Assembly: GCA_963709405.1 (NCBI GenBank)
Contig: CAVPXM010000095.1
Coordinates: 1-23,390 of the forward strand
Direction of reading: 5' to 3'
DNA from: an uncultured Nitrososphaerales archaeon
Lineage (GTDB): Archaea > Thermoproteota > Nitrososphaeria > Nitrososphaerales > Nitrososphaeraceae
Length of the DNA stretch: 23,390 bases
Shown: positions 1 through 19,672 of the stretch, piece by piece
How positions within the stretch are numbered: position 1 is the stretch's first letter
Layout: each line of letters starts with the position of its first letter
Translations under genes and position numbers: made by a program
Notes under the pieces: model-generated
Told to the model about the DNA's origin: nothing
Databases searched by the model: none
What the model saw: the letters and a program-made list of their open reading frames with translations, nothing else

Positions 1-1873
1 CTTGATGTAGTCTGCCCTTTTACTTAAGGATGTGACATCTGTAGTTTCTTAGCTCTTGATCAGATACAATGATGGCATTGTCATCTTTTGTCGTTAACTT
101 ATCATCGATTATTCCGATCTCTCTTGCGACAGGCTATAACTTGTAAGTTTATGGTCTCCGGTTATCATAACGACATCTATCCCTGCGCATTTGCATTGCG
201 CAATTGAATCTATGACTTCCTTCCTTGGTGGGTCCGTCATCCCCACAAGGCCTAGGAACAAAAGATTCTTTTCTACATCTTCTTGTGATAAATGATTCTC
301 TTTCAGCTCTTTGTACGCTAGTGCTAACACTCGTAATCCTCTTGTAGCCATATCATCATTTAGCGACAATTTCTTCTAATATCGTCAGACAAGGACAAAG
401 ATTTGTTATCGACAACAATCCCGGAGCAACGACTTAGGACGAACTTCACAAGCGCCTTTGATATAAGCTCCATGCTTTCTACTATTACTGCTACTATTAC
501 TATTATTATTGTATGAACTTCTATGGATTGTTGTCATCATCTTTCTTTCGGGACTGAATGGTATTTCTTGTACCCTCGGATATTCGGAATTTGTTTTGTC
601 CTTTGTTATGCCACCAATCTTGTAGGCAAAAATTAACAATGCAATCTCAGTCGGGTCTCCTGTTAGGTCAGCCTTATCTTCTTTGAACACTATGTTAGCA
701 TCATTACATAAAACCGCTGTCTTGGCAAGTAGCATTAAATCGTTGTTATCAATATTTGAATCAACAACCCCACCTTCTAAACCATATCCTGCACCAGTTA
801 CCTGAGCAGATTTGTCATACACATAGAGATTCCTTACTGTCATCTCCCCCTTCGTTAAGGTTCCCGTTTTGTCACTACAAATTATAGTCGTCGAACCAAG
901 AACTTCCACAGCCTGAAGCCGCCTCACTACTGCGTTTCGTTTAGCCATTTTATATGTTCCAACTGTCAGAGATGCTGTTATAACTGCAGGTAACGCTTCT
1001 GGAACAGCTTCTACTGCTAAGCTTATTCCCCAAACAAGCATGTCTAATAGTTGGAGACCACGAATAAATGCAAAGATACTAACAATTCCAACTACGAGTA
1101 ACATTATTACACTCAGCAGTTTCGTGGTATGTCTAATCTTTAGTTCAAAAGGAGTCTTTCGTACATCAATTGTTTGTATTTCAGTTGCAACCTTTCCTAG
1201 TTCTGTATCCATGGCAGTTGCAAAAACTACTGCTTTTCCTCGACCATAGGTTATAGTGGTAGTAGTGTAAATGATGTTTTTTCTGCCAACAATCGGCGTA
1301 TCTTTAGATATCACTGCTGCAGTTTTTCCTACTGGAAGTGATTCTCCAGTTAAAGGTGCCTCGTTTACCTCCAAGTTGTGACTCTCAATTAAGTATGCGT
1401 CCCCAGGAACTTTGTCCCCTACAGAAAGCAGAATTATGTCACCGGGGACAAGTCTTGTCACATCAATTATGCTTTCCTCATTATTTCGAATAACCCGGCA
1501 TGTTGTGGCTGTCATCTTCTTTAACGCTTCAACCGTCTTTTCTGACCTGTATTCCTGGATAAAGGCTACAGTGGCCGCAAGTATTACTATTGCGATGATA
1601 ATAGCTGAATCAATCAGTTCACCCACAATCGCAGAGATCGCAGTCGCAAATAGGAGTATTATTATAAGAGGATCGGTGAACTGTTTTGCGAATGTGGTCT
1701 GCTCTCGAGATCCCTCTTTCTGCTTCGATTTCATTAAATCCGTAGACTGTAAGTCTCTCGTTAGCTTCTCTCCGAGTCAGTCCTCTGATACTAGTCCTTA
1801 AATCTTGCATAACTTGATCACGATTTATAGAATGCCAGTCGGGTTTTGTTGATTTTGTCGATTCCTTTACCAT
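1..1873 (-). pseudogene. Type IIA-like (Ca2+-transporting) P-type ATPase, frameshifted; runs off the window start
   Basis: Pieces 1619-1873 (cation_ATPase_N: GLTRREANERLTVYGFNEI), 406-1734 (TGES, PEALP, DKTGTLT phosphorylation site, KGA) and 109-369 (GLRVLALAYK, DPPR, MITGD) are collinear. Frameshifts lie near ~1700, ~430-375 and ~135. Confidence 0.93.
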
Positions 1874-9328: not shown

Positions 9329-9586
9329 ATGTCAACTAGAAAATTTGTTTCGTTGTATTATGATCGAATGAATGGATTACGGAACGGATATATTCTACAA
9401 ATTATGGGCCTCTCCTTTGTCTTTAGAATTTGCAGTACTCTTACACTTTACCTAATCTTTTTGTTAGTAGCAAGTACTGTAATCATTCCCACAATCGTTG
9501 CTCAACCAAGTTTTGCGCAGTTAGGCAGCTCCAAAGGAAAAGATTATCCTAACAGCTATGTTCGTAGAATTACATACAAATCGTGA
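9329..9586 (+). pseudogene. N-terminal fragment of an exported/membrane protein
   Basis: A hydrophobic stretch ends in PSFAQ (signal-peptidase-like). The ORF stops at the junction with the truncated MFS 3' end. Confidence 0.4.
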
Positions 9587-10996
9587 AATGGGAAAATTTC
9601 TACTCGACGGTGCACTCGCCAACCGCTATATTGCTCTGGAGCTGATGCTGCGACAATATTATATCCCCCAACCCTTGAAAATGATAAGCCAATAGCTATT
9701 ATGCCTAGGTTAATAGATATTAAAATTTGAGTTGAGTGAAACATAAATAGCAAAAAGAATCCAATCGTACTGATCACATTTCCTACTACAGTGATATTGA
9801 GATTTCCAAATTTAGATATAATAACACCAGCGATAGAAGATACTAAAAAAGATATAATCATAAAAGGAAGTTGAACACTTGCTGCTCCTATTGCATCACC
9901 ACCAAATCCTAATGGTTTTGGACTTCTTACCAATATTGGTATACTCTGATATACCATAAACATTGTAATGCTTATAATCATCAAGTTGATATTAGTTGGA
10001 AGTAAAATTTTATGGGTCATTAGATTAAGATTGACTAATGGAGAGGGCGATGTTGTTGTTGTGCTTGTGCTTGTGGTTTTTGCAGATGTTGTCACAACTG
10101 ACATTTTTCTTTCTATTCTTATAAAAAACAAAAGTGAAACTACAGATACAACTGAAAAGCTGATGAGTGGAATCAGATTAGAGGGATTGCTAATATTCTC
10201 CAAATCTGATAGTGCAAGCAAAAAGAAGGTTATCGTAACGGCTAATGTTACTGCACCTTTGATATCATCTAAATTAAGAAGTCTACTACTATCCGCTTCT
10301 GCTTCTGGCAATCTGCACCTGCTCATCACTTTCGTTCTCTTCGAGATTGTAATTGTTCTTGATTTAGCTTCGTGAATACACAGCAATAGTCAAAATCAGG
10401 TTTTGACTTTGGTGATTCCTGTTCTTCCTTACTAACATAAATTAATCTATGTACCATCACAATTAATGCAATAGCGATAGGTATTATCGAGAAAAAAGGT
10501 TGCGTGCCATCCAAAGTAACTGGACTATTGGTCCTCCTACTGCTAAACCCACTGCAGATCCACCTGCAAAAGTGCTTATAAAAATTCCTTGGGCCACCGC
10601 TAGTTTTTGTGGAGGAAATTGAGATCGTATGATACCAAAAGCTATTGGAAACATAGAGAGACCAACGCCCTGAATTATTCTAGCAATAAATAGAAAAGAG
10701 ATAGAAAATGCCAAACCACCTAAAGTAACACCTATGGTATAGATTATCATTATTATAAGTAGAATCTTCTTTTTTCCATAGATATCAGATAACTTACCAG
10801 CAATCGGCGTCATAACAGCACCTGAAATCAAGTATGCTGTAAGTATCCAAGATGATGTACTGTAATTAATATGAAAGTCCCTAATAATATCTGGAATAGC
10901 TGGTAGCAGCATAGTCTCTGCATGCATGGTTATAAGACCGATAGAACTTAGGATTGCAAGTGTTATCCAAGGGGACTGCTTGATCTTTGTCAGCAT
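9556..10996 (-). pseudogene. MFS (DHA2/EmrB-like) transporter, frameshifted and 3'-truncated near 9625
   Basis: Motif A GKLSDIYGKKK and ARIIQGVG, split across three frames (10484-10996, 10326-10514, 9556-10386). Homology ends at SAPEQYSG. Confidence 0.9.
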
Positions 10997-11030: not shown

Positions 11031-11892
11031 CTACATTGAAAAATTTTGCATTATCATTTTTCGAAACTCCCTGTCAGGCATATTCATTCTTGCTTGTATT
11101 ATTGTAGTACCTACAGTATATCTTAGTTCTGGATTTTCGGATCTTACGGCTTGTAGTATAACCTTTGCCACTTCTTCTGGTGGAGAAGATGATGATACAT
11201 TTTCCATCATTAGTTTAAAGTGGTTCTCTACCTTTTCCATAAGTGAAAAATAAGGAGATTTTGGGTCTAAAGCTTTTTTTGGTGAAGCGCCTGAATTTAT
11301 AAGGTTAGTTCTGATAAAACCTGGTTCAATTATAACTACTCTTATTCCAAATTGCTCTACTTCATAGGCTATAGATTCTGATAATCCTTCTAGCGCAAAC
11401 TTTGAGCCCACATAGGAAGAATTGAGTGGGAGTCCAATTCTTCCAGCTGAAGAACTAATATTTACTATTGTGCCTCCTCTTTGTCTTCTCATAATAGGCA
11501 ATACTTCTTTTATAATTCTGATAACACCGAAAAAATTGGTTTCAAATTGTTCTTTGAATTCTTTAATAGAAATCTGTTCTACGGGTCCTAGTAATACATA
11601 TCCTGCGTTATTAACTAATACATCTAGCCTTTCTTGTTCACTTTCTATTTTACCAATTGCTTCTTTGACAGATCTGTCATCAGTGACATCTAGTTGAACA
11701 ACTTGCAAGCGGCAGATTTTCCCTATTGGCTATTTCTGTTATATTTTTGGATTTTTCAAGATTACGCATAGAAGCATATGTGTGAAATCCGTTCCTTGCT
11801 AAAAGAAGGGCCGTCTCAAATCCTATGCCGCTTGAGCTACCTGTTACAAGTGCAATATTTTTTTTGCCTTGCATATTCTGTATTAACCACAA
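11031..11892 (-). pseudogene. SDR-family oxidoreductase with a 1-nt insertion near 11709
   Basis: TGSSSGIG, NNAG and YVGSK catalytic motif. Two overlapping ORFs join at ENLP/LQVVQLDVTD. Same-strand neighbour of the MFS gene. Confidence 0.92.
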
Positions 11893-16665: not shown

Positions 16666-17070
16666 CTCTGTTGCATAAATCATTTTATTCCTTCATACAT
16701 TGTCTATACCTCTCTACATTATCGTAGCAAACATGTTATACAGTGACGCTTTTAGGATCAATTCCTTGGCCATGTTCTGAAAGTTTCTTGCAGTAACATA
16801 TTCGCCAAATGTTCTTTTAATAGACGAGAATACTGTTTCTGCCGTCCACCTTTGTCCATAGCTCACGCTATGTTTCCATCTTTTGAGATTTGTTTGTTGT
16901 CTCATTACAGACATATTCCTTGCTTGACAGTTGCTTGTCTTGACCTTGGAATTACTTCTTGTCTTTATACCAGGTTTAATATGGTTCTTGGATAGGTATC
17001 TAAAATTCTTATTACTGTCATACATACCATCTGCTAACGCACCCTTTACATTGTTATTTGCAGACACAGA
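16666..17070 (-). mobile_element. IS5-family transposase 3' half with its terminal inverted repeat
   Basis: LADGMYDS, YGQRWTAETVFSSIKRTFGE and ELILKASLYN. End sequence CTCTGTTGCATAAATC at 16666-16681. The 5' half is missing. Confidence 0.88.
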
Positions 17071-17430
17071 CATGACGGAGAGAGAAATTCCATTGTATTG
17101 AAACTGTGGGCAGGTGCTATAGCGGCAGCAAAGACAACGCGTTCGGTATATAATGTTCAAGGAGGCCAACAACGATATACCATTGAAGAAAGGATAGTAG
17201 GTTTTGCAAAAGTCGATGTGTGGGCGAATAGTGACCAAATACTTCGTGCTGGAGTTGAGGTTGCACCTATTCTAGAACTAATTGTGCGAAAACATCATGT
17301 CATTTCTTTAGAAGGCACTGATAAGAATTCTCCATGGAATGGAATGGCAAATGTTGATTACAAATCTGTAAAGAAAGCCGATTTAGTAATATCTGACCAA
17401 GATGAATGTGATTGTAACACCAAAAAATGA
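17071..17430 (+). pseudogene. Hypothetical protein, probably 5'-truncated at the IS5 junction
   Basis: The frame is open from the IS junction to TGA 17430, with coding-like composition. Confidence 0.5.
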
Positions 17431-17609
17431 GCGTTGTTTCATATGCTAACTAGTGTCCTCAACATAAACCAATTTTGTTGCTTTCGAAATTATCTCTATC
17501 CTTCTTGAAGAAATAAAAGTATGCAAGTTGAAGTATATATCAAGCACGAAAAATGCAAATCTATCATCAAATGCAACTAAATAATGTGGTAAAAGAGGTA
17601 ACGACCTGA

Positions 17610-17741
17610 ATGAAACGCTGTATGTACTGGTCACTATCACAAGCGCCATTATTCAAACAACTTGACGACGGTAAAAACTATTACTGGACTGACTCATGTA
17701 TCTCAAGACATTATCATGAATTTGTTGAAGCAATAGAGTGA
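17610..17741 (+). CDS. 43-aa TRASH/YHS-like microprotein (degenerate Cys pattern)
   Basis: MKRCMYWSLSQAPLFKQLDDGKNYYWTDSCISRHYHEFVEAIE*. GAGGT SD upstream; the stop overlaps the next GTG. Confidence 0.55.
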   Translation: MKRCMYWSLSQAPLFKQLDDGKNYYWTDSCISRHYHEFVEAIE

Positions 17742-17884
17742 CCGCATCAGACTCTATATTTCCTGAGTGTGACTATTGTCATAGGCATAAAGATATCAAG
17801 ACCTTTATAACATGCGGTTTCTGTGGTAAGAAGATGTGTTCTGCTTGCTGTATAAATGATGCTGGAAAGTGTGTAGGAAAATGA
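17738..17884 (+). CDS. 48-aa 8-Cys B-box/AN1-like zinc-finger microprotein
   Basis: MTASDSIFPECDYCHRHKDIKTFITCGFCGKKMCSACCINDAGKCVGK*, with GTGA and ATGA overlaps at its two ends. Confidence 0.8.
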   Translation: MTASDSIFPECDYCHRHKDIKTFITCGFCGKKMCSACCINDAGKCVGK

Positions 17885-18153
17885 CTGAACCTCAACCAAA
17901 TCCAAATCCACCACCATCAATAGAAGACTTTGTTAATCTATTCTTAGAGACAAGAGTAAAGCCTATCTGGAAATGTCCTGTCTGCTTAAACCCCGTCTGG
18001 AATGATGGGCGAATACTAAAGCAAGGAAGAACCGGTCAACACATGCATACTCATACTATCCTAGAGTTTCAAAGAGAGTTAAAGTATAACCTAAGTCATG
18101 GTGTAGGTATAGGAACAGGCGAGTCACATGGATGGAAAAATGACCGAGCATAA
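17881..18153 (+). CDS. C2H2-like zinc-finger protein (90 aa)
   Basis: ATG 17881 overlaps the upstream stop. Contains WKCPVC..QHMHTH. Confidence 0.7.
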   Translation: MTEPQPNPNPPPSIEDFVNLFLETRVKPIWKCPVCLNPVWNDGRILKQGRTGQHMHTHTILEFQRELKYNLSHGVGIGTGESHGWKNDRA

Positions 18154-18520
18154 CTACAAGGTCTGGATTGTGTATCATGGCTATTACTCAGACAAGAATA
18201 TAGAACGAGTGTTTGACTCAAAGGAAAAGGCAGAGAAACATCTTAACAAGATATTATTTGGTGAGGAAGATCATTACCAAACAAGACTACAGCGAGCACA
18301 AATAGACCTTGCAGACTATGAACGCGATCCAAAACAATACATGGAGAATCACCACTTACAAGGACATGCAAAACTGTTTGATAATCCATTATACGAACGT
18401 CTAAACACTATTCATGCTAATCTACAGAGTAGTGTATTATACTGGAAAAAAGTCATATCAGGTGAACGCAAGCCAGACTCTTCAGACGATTACTATATTG
18501 AAGAATACGATGTCTACTAA
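18140..18520 (+). CDS. Virus-type hypothetical protein (DUF7336-like) with coiled-coil insertion
   Basis: KVWIVYHGYYSDKNIERVFDSKEKAEK...YYIEEYDV is a pattern common in phage and archaeal virus proteins. Confidence 0.7.
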   Translation: MTEHNYKVWIVYHGYYSDKNIERVFDSKEKAEKHLNKILFGEEDHYQTRLQRAQIDLADYERDPKQYMENHHLQGHAKLFDNPLYERLNTIHANLQSSVLYWKKVISGERKPDSSDDYYIEEYDVY

Positions 18521-18719
18521 CCTATGCCGAGTCTAGATAACTCAGGCAGACTATACCCACACTGTAGATCAGATTTACAACAGCGTTAAACCTTCTAGAC
18601 GTAAATACCCAAACTTCGGTGCTCCTACCACAGTCAGAGCAATAACATGTCACTAGGAGAAAGGGACGCACTGGATGCTATTCTGTATATCATGTGATCT
18701 CTGGAAAGTAGATGATTGA
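18510..18719 (+). pseudogene. Decayed zinc-ribbon microprotein with two in-frame TAG codons
   Basis: MSTNLCRV*...RKYPNFGAP..TCH*EKGTHWMLFCISCDLWKVDD*. Overlaps both neighbours. Confidence 0.45.
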
Positions 18720-18787
18720 CCAGTTACATATGTTTTAATTGTGGTAACGCTTGGATCGAACCACGACTATATGTCACAAGCCTGTAA
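18716..18787 (+). pseudogene. CxxCG microprotein remnant
   Basis: TTG start overlaps the upstream TGA. Reads MTSYICFNCGNAWIEPRLYVTSL*. Confidence 0.4.
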
Positions 18788-19051
18788 ACAACGTTGCCTT
18801 CACCCAAATTTTCCACTACATCTTCTCAAAACAGTAGAGACAATAGATAGATATCCAAAACGAGCAAGCAACTTCTTACAAAAGAACTTCTTACAAAAGC
18901 ATAAGATTAGTGACTGCAGAATATGCAAGACTAATACATAACAGATTCACAATTTACTTGGTTATGTCCATGTTGTGGTAGATGGCTATCTAGGAAGTTG
19001 AGCACTAAACAACAACCATCCGTAAAAGTAGAGTTAGAAATTTCACGCTAA
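18771..19051 (+). pseudogene. Cys-rich protein (Cx3C..CxxC..CPCCG), frameshift near 18933
   Basis: MSQACKQRCLH..DCRICKT/YITDSQFTWLCPCCGRWLSRK..ISR*. Confidence 0.55.
18870..18899 (+). repeat. Perfect 15-bp tandem duplication
   Basis: AACTTCTTACAAAAG x2 (NFLQK NFLQK). Confidence 0.95.
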
Positions 19052-19672
19052 GTGATGATAAGGTAGCAATGCTCTACGTTTTCTACTAAAGAACGGTAAT
19101 ACATCAGACGATGTAGGAATAGACGACTACGAGAACAAGTTGAAGAAGTTAGCAGCAAAATTTGCTAGGGCTTCACTACAATAAATGGTCCTTACATTCT
19201 ACGAATTTTAAACAAACGGCAACCAAATATCAACACAAGCACAGACATTTAAGCCAATAACTGAACCGTTTCATACAACTACACTAGATGTACTTACTGC
19301 AATAGCAACACTTTAGAGTCAATGTCCATATCTGATAATGAAAACAGCAGATCATACCTTGTTGATTTATAACACCGACCAACCAATTTCTGTCGCTTCA
19401 GTAAAGTTAGCGACGATAGTATGGAATAATGTGTATATATGAAAAACATAAAGAGCGCTGTGAGATTATAATATATGCTCTGAGCTAGTCGCCAATGGAC
19501 GAAGGTAATATATCACCAGGTGAAAAAGACCTTTGACTTGACTTACATTTTTCTGTTTGTTTCAATTATTATTCCCTTCATCTGTCCTACGGCCACTTAA
19601 GATACTATTATGCTACAAGCAAGCTATCTAGGAGCATCAAACTTAAATAATTACTTCAAGACCTCTATTATT

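What the first reader, a model, noticed from the sequence alone, without database searches (positions are those of the whole stretch)
17610..19051. Translationally coupled, virus-like microprotein operon
Seen: seven consecutive + strand ORFs each overlap the next (GTGA 17738, ATGA 17881, 18140/18153, 18510/18520, TTGA 18716, 18771/18787). Six are Cys-motif proteins and one is DUF7336-like. Known: such tight packing of tiny genes is typical of virus early regions. Inference: this is a relic of a Nitrososphaeraceae provirus whose left side was cut at the IS5 remnant.
Basis: partly seen in the sequence, partly recalled or inferred. Interest (0 to 1): 0.7.

Follow-up and report, generated by a model that had tools for sequence, protein, structure and literature searches.

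The report
Small zinc-finger and DUF7336 gene cassette
A soil ammonia-oxidising archaeon carries a strain-specific run of four tiny genes, three with zinc-finger-like motifs and one phage-type DUF7336, that looks like a leftover of a mobile, possibly viral, element, but no virus hallmark gene is present and only part of the claimed overlap chain is real.

Summary
Four + strand ORFs really form an overlapping chain: 17610-17741, 17738-17884, 17881-18153 and 18128/18140-18520. The chain then breaks, because the ORF at ATG 18510 is only 8 codons long. The "ORFs" from 18524 to 19051 are 14-56 codon pieces that look like frameshifted zinc-ribbon debris.

In contigs of 4 of 4 soil runs laid, an extra A behind 18037 shortens ORF3 to 69 aa. 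The ORF3/ORF4 overlap is therefore seen only in this assembly.

ORF1 belongs to a genus-restricted C-x2-C...C-x3-H family under purifying selection. ORF4 is a DUF7336 protein. In sister species an ORF1-like gene plus a DUF7336-like gene form a sharply bounded 386-bp unit. That unit sits at different chromosomal sites with no viral gene in the stretches read.

The viral links are indirect:
- DUF7336 is common in tailed phages.
- A 53-60 nt promoter-like element upstream of ORF1 recurs upstream of terminase-small-subunit-like genes.
- One diverged ORF1 relative lies 0.5 kb from a terminase fragment.

I found no capsid, terminase, integrase, att site or IMG/VR relative for the window. The IS remnant cuts a different gene, not the cluster.

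Verdict: an accessory cassette probably derived from a mobile element, partly decaying. Interest is modest.

The parts
16666..17064 (-). Remnant of a multi-copy insertion sequence: its 3' third, holding the C-terminal part of a DDE transposase. It is truncated at 17064 on the side facing the cluster.
   Evidence: about 30 other copies in the genome match window 16666-17064, and all matches end at 17064. DDE_Tnp_1, 46 bits, profile positions 79-200 of 200. The label 'IS5' was not tested.
17041..17430 (+). C-terminal ~107 codons of a gene of an uncharacterised 170-260-aa family (RLW.GC..AAK motif). Its N-terminal part was lost at the IS junction.
   Evidence: best relative 48% identical, E 1.2e-25, inside a 259-aa ORF. 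Matches in 20 of 237 other family genomes; 88 cluster representatives at E<=0.001.
17486..17557 (+). Promoter-like element with an AAGTAT direct repeat and TATATAT at about 17533. It is homologous to the region upstream of terminase-small-subunit-like genes.
   Evidence: 83% over 53 nt to G000:C46, and 82% over 60 nt to G004:C59 and G004:C2 (E 8e-9); the C46 and C59 copies lie about 95-130 nt upstream of a TerS-like gene. Promoter function is inferred.
17610..17741 (+). ORF1: a 43-aa zinc-finger-like microprotein of a genus-restricted family (consensus C-x2-C ... C-x3-H-x-H). Here the second Cys is W.
   Evidence: relatives 60-74% identical in G004 (2 copies plus 1 diverged copy) and G005; dN/dS 0.12-0.30 for diverged pairs.
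17738..17884 (+). ORF2: 48 aa with 9 Cys (CxxC-x11-CxxC-x4-CxxCC-x6-C) and a GTG start overlapping the ORF1 stop (GTGA).
   Evidence: Prok-RING_2 only 17.9 bits, below the 22.4 cut-off; no credible relative in 237 family genomes; no indel, and one listed change (17794 T>C, in one run; synonymous by my own codon count).
17881..18153 (+). ORF3: 90 aa in this assembly (CPVC ... HMHTH). It is polymorphic: other sources carry a +1 frameshift that gives 69 aa ending at window 18089, some also with C35F.
18140..18520 (+). ORF4: a DUF7336 domain (about residues 11-65 of the 130-aa form) plus a helical C-terminal extension. An alternative start lies at 18128.
   Evidence: PF24024, 37.9 bits, cut-off 25; phrog_3002, E 6.6e-5; model with strand-strand-helix-strand then helices; matches small phage DUF7336 proteins. 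No indel in the 4 runs laid.
18524..19051 (+). Debris: 14-56-codon ORFs in shifting frames carrying half zinc-ribbon motifs (CISC | CFNC; DCRIC | CPCC). Includes an exact 15-nt tandem duplication at 18870-18899.
   Evidence: one run has 2-, 17-, 4- and 1-nt deletions here; a 23-nt exact match (18727-18749) to a multi-copy zinc-ribbon gene family of this genome; the tandem duplication.
19323..19442 (+). Right breakpoint: the last ~40 codons of a ~300-aa family gene that starts with a hydrophobic, signal-like stretch. The rest of the gene is missing.
   Evidence: matches residues 253-294 of a 294-aa protein (69% identity). Full-length paralogs lie on contigs C6 and C75 of this genome.

Best explanation
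The segment from about 17486 to 19320 is a strain-specific accessory cassette. It lies between two truncated genes in an IS-rich, pseudogene-rich part of a soil Nitrososphaeraceae chromosome.

Its core is a two-gene module: a small C-x2-C...C-x3-H zinc-finger-like protein (ORF1) and a DUF7336 protein (ORF4). In sister species the same kind of pair forms a compact 386-bp unit with its own upstream region, found at different chromosomal places. In this window two further Cys/His-rich ORFs (ORF2, ORF3) sit between the two core genes. About 500 nt of frameshifted zinc-ribbon debris follows.

The cassette most likely came from a mobile element, probably one of the terminase-bearing virus-like elements whose fragments litter this genus. 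It is now partly decaying: ORF3 is frameshift-polymorphic and the tail is debris.

Inferred mechanism: one transcript starts about 25 nt downstream of the TATA-like TATATAT near 17533. ORF1, ORF2 and ORF3 are translated by termination-reinitiation at the 4-nt overlaps GTGA and ATGA. The products are small metal-binding proteins and a DUF7336 protein. They would act by binding nucleic acid or host or viral proteins, as a regulatory or host-interaction module.

Shown here: the ORFs, the overlaps, family membership, selection on ORF1 and on the DUF7336-like partner, the distribution and the polymorphism. Inferred: transcription, coupling, zinc binding, function and viral origin.
For: Reality of the genes:
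- ORF4 is DUF7336.
- The ORF1 family shows dN/dS 0.12-0.30, and its DUF7336-like partner 0.16-0.36.
- The partner matches a DUF7336 alignment by hhalign with probability 86% and E 5e-6.
- ORF1, ORF2 and ORF4 have no indels in contigs of the 4 runs laid. Indels fall in ORF3 and in 18702-19044.

Accessory nature:
- ORF3 gives matches in 2 of 237 other family genomes, both at chance level with stops inside.
- ORF2 gives 3 of 237, all at E>=0.003.
- ORF4 as a whole protein gives 2 of 150, both weak.
- The ORF1 family is found only in 2 of 6 sister genomes, plus one weak hit elsewhere.
- The segment is bounded by a truncated gene on each side.

Mobility of the core:
- A 386-bp unit is 92.7% identical between two contigs of G004, with sharp ends.
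- The pair is absent from the syntenic helicase locus of this genome.

Viral flavour:
- ORF4 hits phrog_3002.
- The best BFVD structure matches include at least 8 named DUF7336 phage proteins, with probability about 0.9-1.0 and target TM 0.3-0.8.
- The upstream element is shared with TerS-like genes.
- A diverged ORF1 relative lies 543 bp from the C-terminal half of a terminase large subunit. That fragment has 602 relatives at E<=0.001 among longer proteins, mostly about 500 aa, many with precomputed PF17289.
- This genome holds 11 terminase matches.
Against: - No viral hallmark, integrase or tRNA is in the window.
- ORF1, ORF2, ORF3 and ORF4 have no IMG/VR relative. These pattern scans find close relatives only.
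- The ORF1/DUF7336-like pairs of G004 and G005 show no viral gene in the stretches read.
- DUF7336 is found in 16 of 25 genomes of another genus. In at least 7 fetched loci it lies beside the same 291-299-aa gene.
- Ten flanking proteins of DUF7336 genes gave no hallmark PHROG.
- Weaker copies (39-44 nt) of the upstream element occur at two places with no TerS-like gene within 1.5 kb. It may be a general promoter type.
- The TerS/TerL pairs of this genome have no obvious capsid genes beside them (ORF listing only), so even they are not proven proviruses.
- No terminal repeats bound the 386-bp unit.
- Codon usage does not separate ORF1-4 from shadow ORFs.
- ORF2 and ORF3 have no relatives that could show selection.
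Confidence: 0.5

Rival explanations
1. It is an ordinary cellular operon of zinc-finger microproteins, of the kind abundant in archaea, that happens to be lineage-specific. It has no mobile-element origin.
For: - The pairs in G004 and G005 lie beside cellular-type genes, with no viral gene in the stretches read.
- DUF7336 is found in 16 of 25 genomes of genus g12, repeatedly beside the same gene.
- There is no hallmark gene and no IMG/VR relative.
- Small zinc-finger proteins are common in a cellular archaeon: 43-49 C(P)XCG microproteins in Haloferax volcanii (PMC10716476, PMC11241148; starts of abstracts seen).
Against: - The distribution is patchy.
- The 386-bp unit is duplicated at unrelated sites.
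- The cassette sits between two truncated genes next to an IS remnant.
- DUF7336 is phage-rich.
- There are terminase-linked hints.
Confidence: 0.25
2. The block is what remains in place of an integrated Nitrososphaeraceae provirus, whose left part was removed at the IS remnant.
For: - Tight packing of tiny genes.
- The phage-type domain.
- The promoter-like element shared with TerS-like genes.
- Many terminase fragments in this genome.
- Truncations on both sides.
Against: - The sequence next to the IS is a fragment of another gene family, not the cluster.
- No hallmark, integrase, att repeat or tRNA was found.
- Sensitive DNA and translated comparison of 17065-19322 with six terminase neighbourhoods of this genome found only the 53-nt element.
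- The same arrangement, including the IS junction, is present in contigs of independent soil runs, with no alternative (free or longer) form seen.
Confidence: 0.12
3. The ORF1 plus DUF7336 pair is a selfish or conflict module (toxin-antitoxin-like, defence or counter-defence) that spreads as a minimal two-gene unit.
For: - It is a compact, promoter-containing 386-bp unit at several sites.
- It is under purifying selection.
- Its distribution is patchy.
- DUF7336 is abundant in phages.
Against: - No PADLOC model matched any of 8 proteins.
- The ORF4 model has no solved fold relative (best Z 4.5).
- No catalytic motif was recognised.
Confidence: 0.08
4. Most of the chain is chance. Only ORF1 and ORF4 are genes. 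ORF2, ORF3 and everything after 18520 are non-coding.
For: - The chain statistic is weak: 55 against 16.
- ORF2 and ORF3 have no family.
- ORF3 is frameshift-polymorphic.
- Codon scores are uninformative.
Against: - ORF2 packs 9 Cys in regular CxxC spacing, and its one listed change looks synonymous.
- ORF3 keeps its start and first 53 codons in all sources.
- The 4-nt overlaps GTGA and ATGA are exact.
Confidence: 0.05

Closest known systems
DUF7336 (Pfam PF24024), small proteins of tailed phages and some prokaryotes
   Same: ORF4 scores above the curated cut-off. Its modelled N-terminal strand-strand-helix-strand domain matches 50-80-aa phage DUF7336 proteins in BFVD.
   Different: ORF4 has a ~65-aa helical C-terminal extension. 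The family has no known function: a full-text search for 'DUF7336' found 0 papers. The ORF4 model has no solved fold relative.
Zinc-finger microproteins of archaea (C(P)XCG proteins of Haloferax volcanii; PMC6562870, PMC10716476, PMC11241148; starts of abstracts seen)
   Same: They are proteins under 70 aa whose main feature is paired Cys motifs. They are encoded in an archaeal chromosome.
   Different: The motifs here are not the paired C(P)XCG type (ORF1: C-x2-C...C-x3-H; ORF2: three CxxC; ORF3: CPVC plus His). Zinc binding is untested. The genes are strain- or genus-specific and chained.
Integrated mobile elements of Thaumarchaeota: proviruses and cryptic integrated elements (PMC6563490; abstract and passages read)
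   Same: Strain-specific DNA of unknown function in a thaumarchaeal chromosome. That paper reports that most such elements have no signature gene apart from the integrase.
   Different: Those elements are defined by an integrase and usually att or target-site repeats (determined for 68 of 74). Neither was found here, and at about 1.9 kb the segment is smaller than the smallest element reported there (2.6 kb).
Overlapping co-directional gene pairs translated by termination-reinitiation (PMC6728339, PMC10666635; starts of abstracts seen)
   Same: 4-nt stop/start overlaps (ATGA, and the GTGA variant) between co-directional genes.
   Different: Coupling is not tested here. Such overlaps are widespread, so they are not a viral signature.

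Membership tests
DUF7336 (PF24024) | Profile score at or above the curated gathering cut-off | tested here: met
   37.9 bits against 25, E 1.6e-9, residues 11-48. One search gives the same match from the genome search (36.4 bits).
DUF7336 (PF24024) | Fold shared with other members | tested here: met
   the model's N-terminal domain has pLDDT 76-92. BFVD matches include at least 8 named DUF7336 phage proteins at probability 0.9-1.0, but with E only 0.009-0.1.
Provirus (integrated virus of Nitrososphaeraceae) | A virus hallmark gene (capsid, portal, terminase) inside the element | tested here: not met
   Pfam on 28 window ORFs found none. None of 11 terminase matches in the genome lies on this contig. 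PHROGs gave only an unknown-function family for ORF4.
Provirus or cryptic integrated element | An integrase gene | tested here: not met
   No integrase or recombinase family matched the 28 ORFs scanned. Short or broken ORFs were not scanned.
Provirus or cryptic integrated element | Flanking direct repeats (att) or a tRNA target | tested here: not met
   No tRNA in the window. No flanking direct repeat of note in 17440-19340. Both borders are truncated genes.
Provirus | Relatives of its genes in virus genomes | tested here: inconclusive
   The IMG/VR scans for ORF1 (alignment), ORF2, ORF3 and ORF4 found none, but this method finds close relatives only. The DUF7336 domain itself is common in phages.
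Translationally coupled overlapping gene pairs | Co-directional genes with a -4 or -1 stop/start overlap | tested here: met
   GTGA at 17738-17741 and ATGA at 17881-17884. No indel at these places in the contigs laid. The ORF3/ORF4 overlap of 14 nt is absent from 4 of 4 runs.
Translationally coupled overlapping gene pairs | Downstream translation depends on upstream translation | not testable with these tools
   Needs reporter fusions or ribosome profiling.
Zinc-finger microproteins | Four Cys/His ligands in two pairs within a protein under 70 aa | tested here: met
   ORF1 family: C4, C7, C30, H34 (the window copy has W7). ORF2: CxxC three times. ORF3 in the 90-aa form: C32, C35 and His 54/56/58.
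Zinc-finger microproteins | Zinc is bound | not testable with these tools
   Needs metal analysis of purified protein.
IS5-family insertion sequence (remnant) | A DDE transposase of that family and its terminal repeats | tested here: inconclusive
   The DDE_Tnp_1 C-terminal part is present and the sequence is multi-copy. The family name IS5 was not checked against an IS database.
Known anti-phage defence systems | Match to a PADLOC model | tested here: not met
   0 families for 8 proteins at E<=0.1.

The most novel reading that the evidence does not exclude
The ORF1-like zinc-finger gene plus the DUF7336 gene, with their ~55-nt upstream region, form a self-contained 386-bp mobile cassette. It moves between chromosomal sites and terminase-bearing virus-like elements without any recombinase of its own. 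It can take up extra Cys-rich genes between its two core genes. This would make it a minimal hitch-hiking module of archaeal viruses, and it would give the widespread phage domain DUF7336 a fixed partner.
Probability: 0.12. Interest if true: 0.6.

Novelty: new member of a known kind. Interest (0 to 1): 0.3.

Why it matters
Soil ammonia-oxidising archaea have large, repeat-rich genomes whose accessory DNA is mostly unexplained, and few of their viruses are known.

If the cassette is of viral origin, it offers three things: a marker for virus-derived DNA that standard hallmark-based tools would miss, a conserved gene partner for DUF7336 (a phage domain with no literature), and a candidate promoter shared with terminase operons.

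If it is cellular, it adds a genus-specific family to the growing set of archaeal zinc-finger microproteins.

Either way, the case shows that runs of overlapping tiny ORFs read from raw sequence need checking. Here three of the seven claimed ORFs are debris and one overlap is assembly-specific.

Tried and rejected
- **Complex prediction.** The G004 ORF1-like protein with its DUF7336-like neighbour gave no answer (score 0.02, mark 0.32). This is not evidence either way.
- **Fold searches of the ORF4 model.** Foldseek against PDB gave nothing at E<=0.001. VIA-align gave a best Z of 4.5, with ClpS, MzrA and Tic22 rows tied at chance level. No functional lead.
- **ESM Atlas.** For ORF3 the best score was 0.88, to unnamed archaeal clusters. 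C2H2-type families appeared only at 0.79-0.81. For the 17098-17427 ORF the best score was 0.76. These are leads only.
- **Rfam and tRNA scans.** Both found nothing in the window.
- **Promoter and terminator scan.** The sigma-70 scan was at shuffle level, with 0 terminators. The model does not suit archaea.
- **Codon-usage score.** It does not separate ORF1-4 from shadow ORFs: 46%, 46%, 21% and 16% of shadow ORFs score as high.
- **A paralog of ORF2 on contig C50** (44% identity, E 5e-5) has an internal stop and no clean ORF. Dropped.
- **TnpB idea.** I considered that 18700-18790 is a TnpB zinc-ribbon remnant. The multi-copy matches turned out to be a ~50-aa stand-alone zinc-ribbon gene in a 470-bp repeat.
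- **RNA evidence.** Run X16 is an RNA library whose contigs cover ORF1, ORF3, ORF4 and the tail at depth 2-5. DNA carry-over cannot be excluded and contigs show no strand, so no claim of expression is made. The same run's contig diverges from the window just upstream of 17870 and barely covers ORF2. That may mean a different gene content, but at this depth it is only a hint.
- **DUF7336 alignment scan of IMG/VR.** It could not be run because the alignment was too diverse.
- **Direct Pfam scan of the G004 terminase fragment.** It found nothing. The assignment rests and a weak PHROG hit.
- **Supplements.** The supplements of PMC6563490 (element tables and gene annotations) could not be seen. They may list small zinc-binding genes of thaumarchaeal elements.
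Full report
**Setting.** The window is a whole 23,390-bp contig (C95) of a 4.83-Mb, 100-contig genome with 37% G+C. A near-identical protein in a public record is named as coming from a Nitrososphaeraceae archaeon.

The contig is poor in intact genes. ORFs of at least 100 aa cover 42% of it, against 57% genome-wide and about 75% on the largest contigs. It carries a split P-type ATPase, a split MFS transporter, a truncated short-chain dehydrogenase and an ArsP fragment. It has no tRNA and no Rfam match.

**The observation.** Four + strand ORFs form a true overlapping chain:
- ORF1: 17610-17741, 43 aa.
- ORF2: 17738-17884, 48 aa, GTG start inside GTGA.
- ORF3: 17881-18153, 90 aa, ATG inside ATGA.
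- ORF4: 18140 or 18128 to 18520, 126 or 130 aa.

It is the only chain of three or more such ORFs in the window.

The fifth claimed ORF (ATG 18510) is 8 codons long, so the chain ends there. The rest, up to 19051, consists of 14- to 56-codon ORFs in shifting frames. Two pairs read like halves of four-Cys zinc ribbons: CISC then CFNC at the TTGA of 18716, and DCRIC then CPCC around 18940.

As a statistic the chain is weak. Chains of four or more ORFs of 40-135 aa number 55 in the real genome and 16 in an order-2 Markov sequence of the same size. That is about 0.08 expected per window.

**Which ORFs are genes.**
- ORF4 is a DUF7336 protein (37.9 bits, cut-off 25).
- ORF1 has relatives only in its own genus: two copies plus one diverged copy in G004 and one in G005. 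That is 2 of 6 sister genomes, plus one weak hit among 231 others. The family consensus is C-x2-C...C-x3-H-x-H. The window copy has W in place of the second Cys.
- Diverged pairs of ORF1 relatives give dN/dS 0.12-0.30. The near-identical pair gives 1.47 from 7 changes.
- ORF2 (9 Cys) and ORF3 (CPVC...HMHTH) have no family. Pfam hits are below cut-off. The search of 5.8 billion proteins found for ORF3 only its own sequence and P0003. Genome searches gave only chance-level hits.
- Codon usage is uninformative.

**Population data.** The stretch 17400-19300 is held, at 38-82% of sampled words, by 17 of the 23 listed runs that are not on record as RNA. One RNA-library run holds 40%. The 20 holding rows come from 10 studies, and most are labelled soil.

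I laid contigs of four runs from four studies:
- All four have an extra A behind 18037. This shifts ORF3 into the frame read and ends it at window 18089 (69 aa). That is the form of P0003.
- Two runs also carry C35F in the CPVC motif.
- One low-depth run has a further 1-nt deletion at 17986.
- The ORF3/ORF4 overlap is therefore seen only in this assembly. Because the difference is a homopolymer length, an assembly error cannot be excluded.
- ORF1, ORF2 and ORF4 show no indel.
- The tail shows 2-, 17-, 4- and 1-nt deletions in one run.
- Three runs replace 19072-19170 by 11 nt.
- Contigs of two runs span the IS junction at 17064/17065, and one contig links the cluster to the right flank. The genomic context is therefore the same in those soils.

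**Borders.** On the left, 16666-17064 is the 3' third of a roughly 30-copy insertion sequence, cut at 17064. Next to it, 17041-17430 encodes the last ~107 residues of an uncharacterised 170-260-aa family. That family is found in 20 of 237 other family genomes, best E 1.2e-25, with 88 cluster representatives in 1.84 billion proteins. The IS event therefore truncated this gene, not the cluster.

On the right, 19323-19442 is the C-terminal ~40 codons of a ~300-aa family gene that has full-length paralogs elsewhere in the genome. The strain-specific segment thus lies between two truncated genes.

**The core module.** In G004 (two sites) and G005 the ORF1-like gene is followed, 12 nt later, by a 59-60-aa gene. 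Its product matches a DUF7336 alignment by profile comparison (probability 86%, E 5e-6) and shows dN/dS 0.16-0.36.

The two G004 copies share exactly 386 bp at 92.7% identity. The shared stretch runs from about 55 nt upstream of the first gene to the last codons of the second, and the flanks are unrelated. No terminal repeats bound it.

Its neighbours are a DEAD-box helicase, a glucose/sorbosone dehydrogenase and a pyridine-nucleotide oxidoreductase fragment. The helicase locus of this genome lacks the pair.

The window has the same two kinds of gene at the ends, ORF1 and ORF4, with ORF2 and ORF3 between them.

**DUF7336.**
- The family search hit 31 of 237 other family genomes. Sixteen of these are among the 25 genomes of one genus. 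There, in at least 7 of the loci fetched, the gene lies beside the same 291-299-aa gene.
- ORF4 also matches phrog_3002 (E 6.6e-5).
- Its model has mean pLDDT 67, with 76-92 in the N-terminal domain.
- The model's best BFVD matches are 50-80-aa phage proteins, at least 8 of them named DUF7336.
- No solved structure matches, and no paper contains the name.
- Ten proteins flanking DUF7336 genes in other genera gave no viral hallmark.

**Links to virus-like elements.** There are three, all indirect.
1. The phage-rich domain, as above.
2. The diverged ORF1 relative in G004:C12 lies 543 bp from a 245-aa ORF. That ORF is the C-terminal half of a ~500-aa terminase large subunit. It has 602 relatives at E<=0.001 among longer proteins, many with precomputed PF17289 and source names such as 'Terminase RNaseH-like domain'. 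A weak PHROG terminase hit agrees. Beyond it lie KdpABC genes.
3. Window 17486-17557 carries an AAGTAT repeat and TATATAT. It matches at 82-83% over 53-60 nt three places: G000:C46, G004:C59 and G004:C2 (E 8e-9). At the two places examined, the match lies about 95-130 nt upstream of a 155-aa helix-turn-helix gene. In full-length copies that gene directly precedes the terminase large subunit.

Weaker 39-44-nt matches occur at two places without such a gene.

This genome holds 11 terminase matches, three of them in long open frames and none on C95. Those loci show no obvious capsid genes in an ORF listing, so they too may be relics.

Comparison of 17065-19322 with six terminase neighbourhoods found only the 53-nt element. 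IMG/VR scans found no relatives of ORF1-4 or of the terminase fragment.

**Reading.** The best account is an accessory cassette built around an ORF1/DUF7336 module. It is probably of mobile, and perhaps viral, origin. It is now partly decaying in a junk-rich region.

The operon model is inferred from the sequence and from published work on overlapping gene pairs (PMC6728339, PMC10666635; starts of abstracts seen). That model is a TATA-like start region near 17533 and coupled translation across GTGA and ATGA.

By the criteria used for thaumarchaeal integrated elements (PMC6563490; abstract and passages read), the segment is not a provirus or a cryptic integrated element, because it has no integrase and no att repeats.

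Small zinc-finger proteins are also ordinary cellular components in archaea (PMC10716476, PMC11241148). The Cys motifs are therefore not a viral signature.

**Unpublished genomes.** The tallies include genomes flagged as unpublished (G092, G236, G114, G054). One G092 sequence is in alignments A3 and A5, and one G114 sequence is in A10. No conclusion depends on them alone.

Noticed in passing
window 17041-17430; L081:94-873: The gene fragment beside the IS belongs to a small lineage-restricted family (88 cluster representatives). A full-length member gives a very confident model (pLDDT 91.8, pTM 0.90), yet no solved structure matches it (Foldseek E>=0.19, best Z 4.1). It may be an undescribed fold.
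   Followed up: partly
window 19323-19442: A stretch conserved at DNA level across genera (90% to G020, 74% to G012) is the C-terminal remnant of a ~300-aa protein family whose members start with a hydrophobic, signal-like stretch. It is not an RNA gene.
   Followed up: yes
G000 contigs C21, C50, C19, C14, C5, C54, C86; window 18727-18749: A ~470-bp repeat unit in at least 5 copies carries two small genes. One is an ~80-100-aa protein starting MGRTIPSFR (10 matches in the genome, no Pfam family). The other is a ~50-aa four-Cys zinc ribbon (7 copies). The window shares an exact 23-nt stretch with the zinc-ribbon gene.
   Followed up: partly
G000 contigs C31, C51, C62, C86, C46, C15 and others: The genome holds 11 terminase-large-subunit matches. 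These include TerS-like plus TerL pairs with no obvious capsid or portal genes beside them, and fragments followed by a 142-aa Cys-rich protein.
   Followed up: partly
window 406-1873, 9556-10996, 11031-11708, 2026-2316: Several broken genes: a P-type ATPase in two frames, an MFS transporter in two pieces, a short-chain dehydrogenase lacking its N-terminus and an ArsP fragment.
   Followed up: no
window 19072-19170 and 19626: Three of four runs replace 99 nt by 11 nt. The same three runs have an extra T behind 19626, upstream of the likely true start of the glyoxalase-family gene. Together with 18037, both single-base differences shared by these runs are homopolymers that are one base shorter in the window.
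   Followed up: no
window 18870-18899: An exact 15-nt tandem duplication (AACTTCTTACAAAAG twice) inside the 56-codon ORF. It gives the repeated peptide NFLQK.
   Followed up: no
G000 contigs C47, C50, C98, C22: A 2.8-kb segment with a glucose/sorbosone dehydrogenase gene is present in four copies, each about 81% identical to the G004 locus.
   Followed up: no
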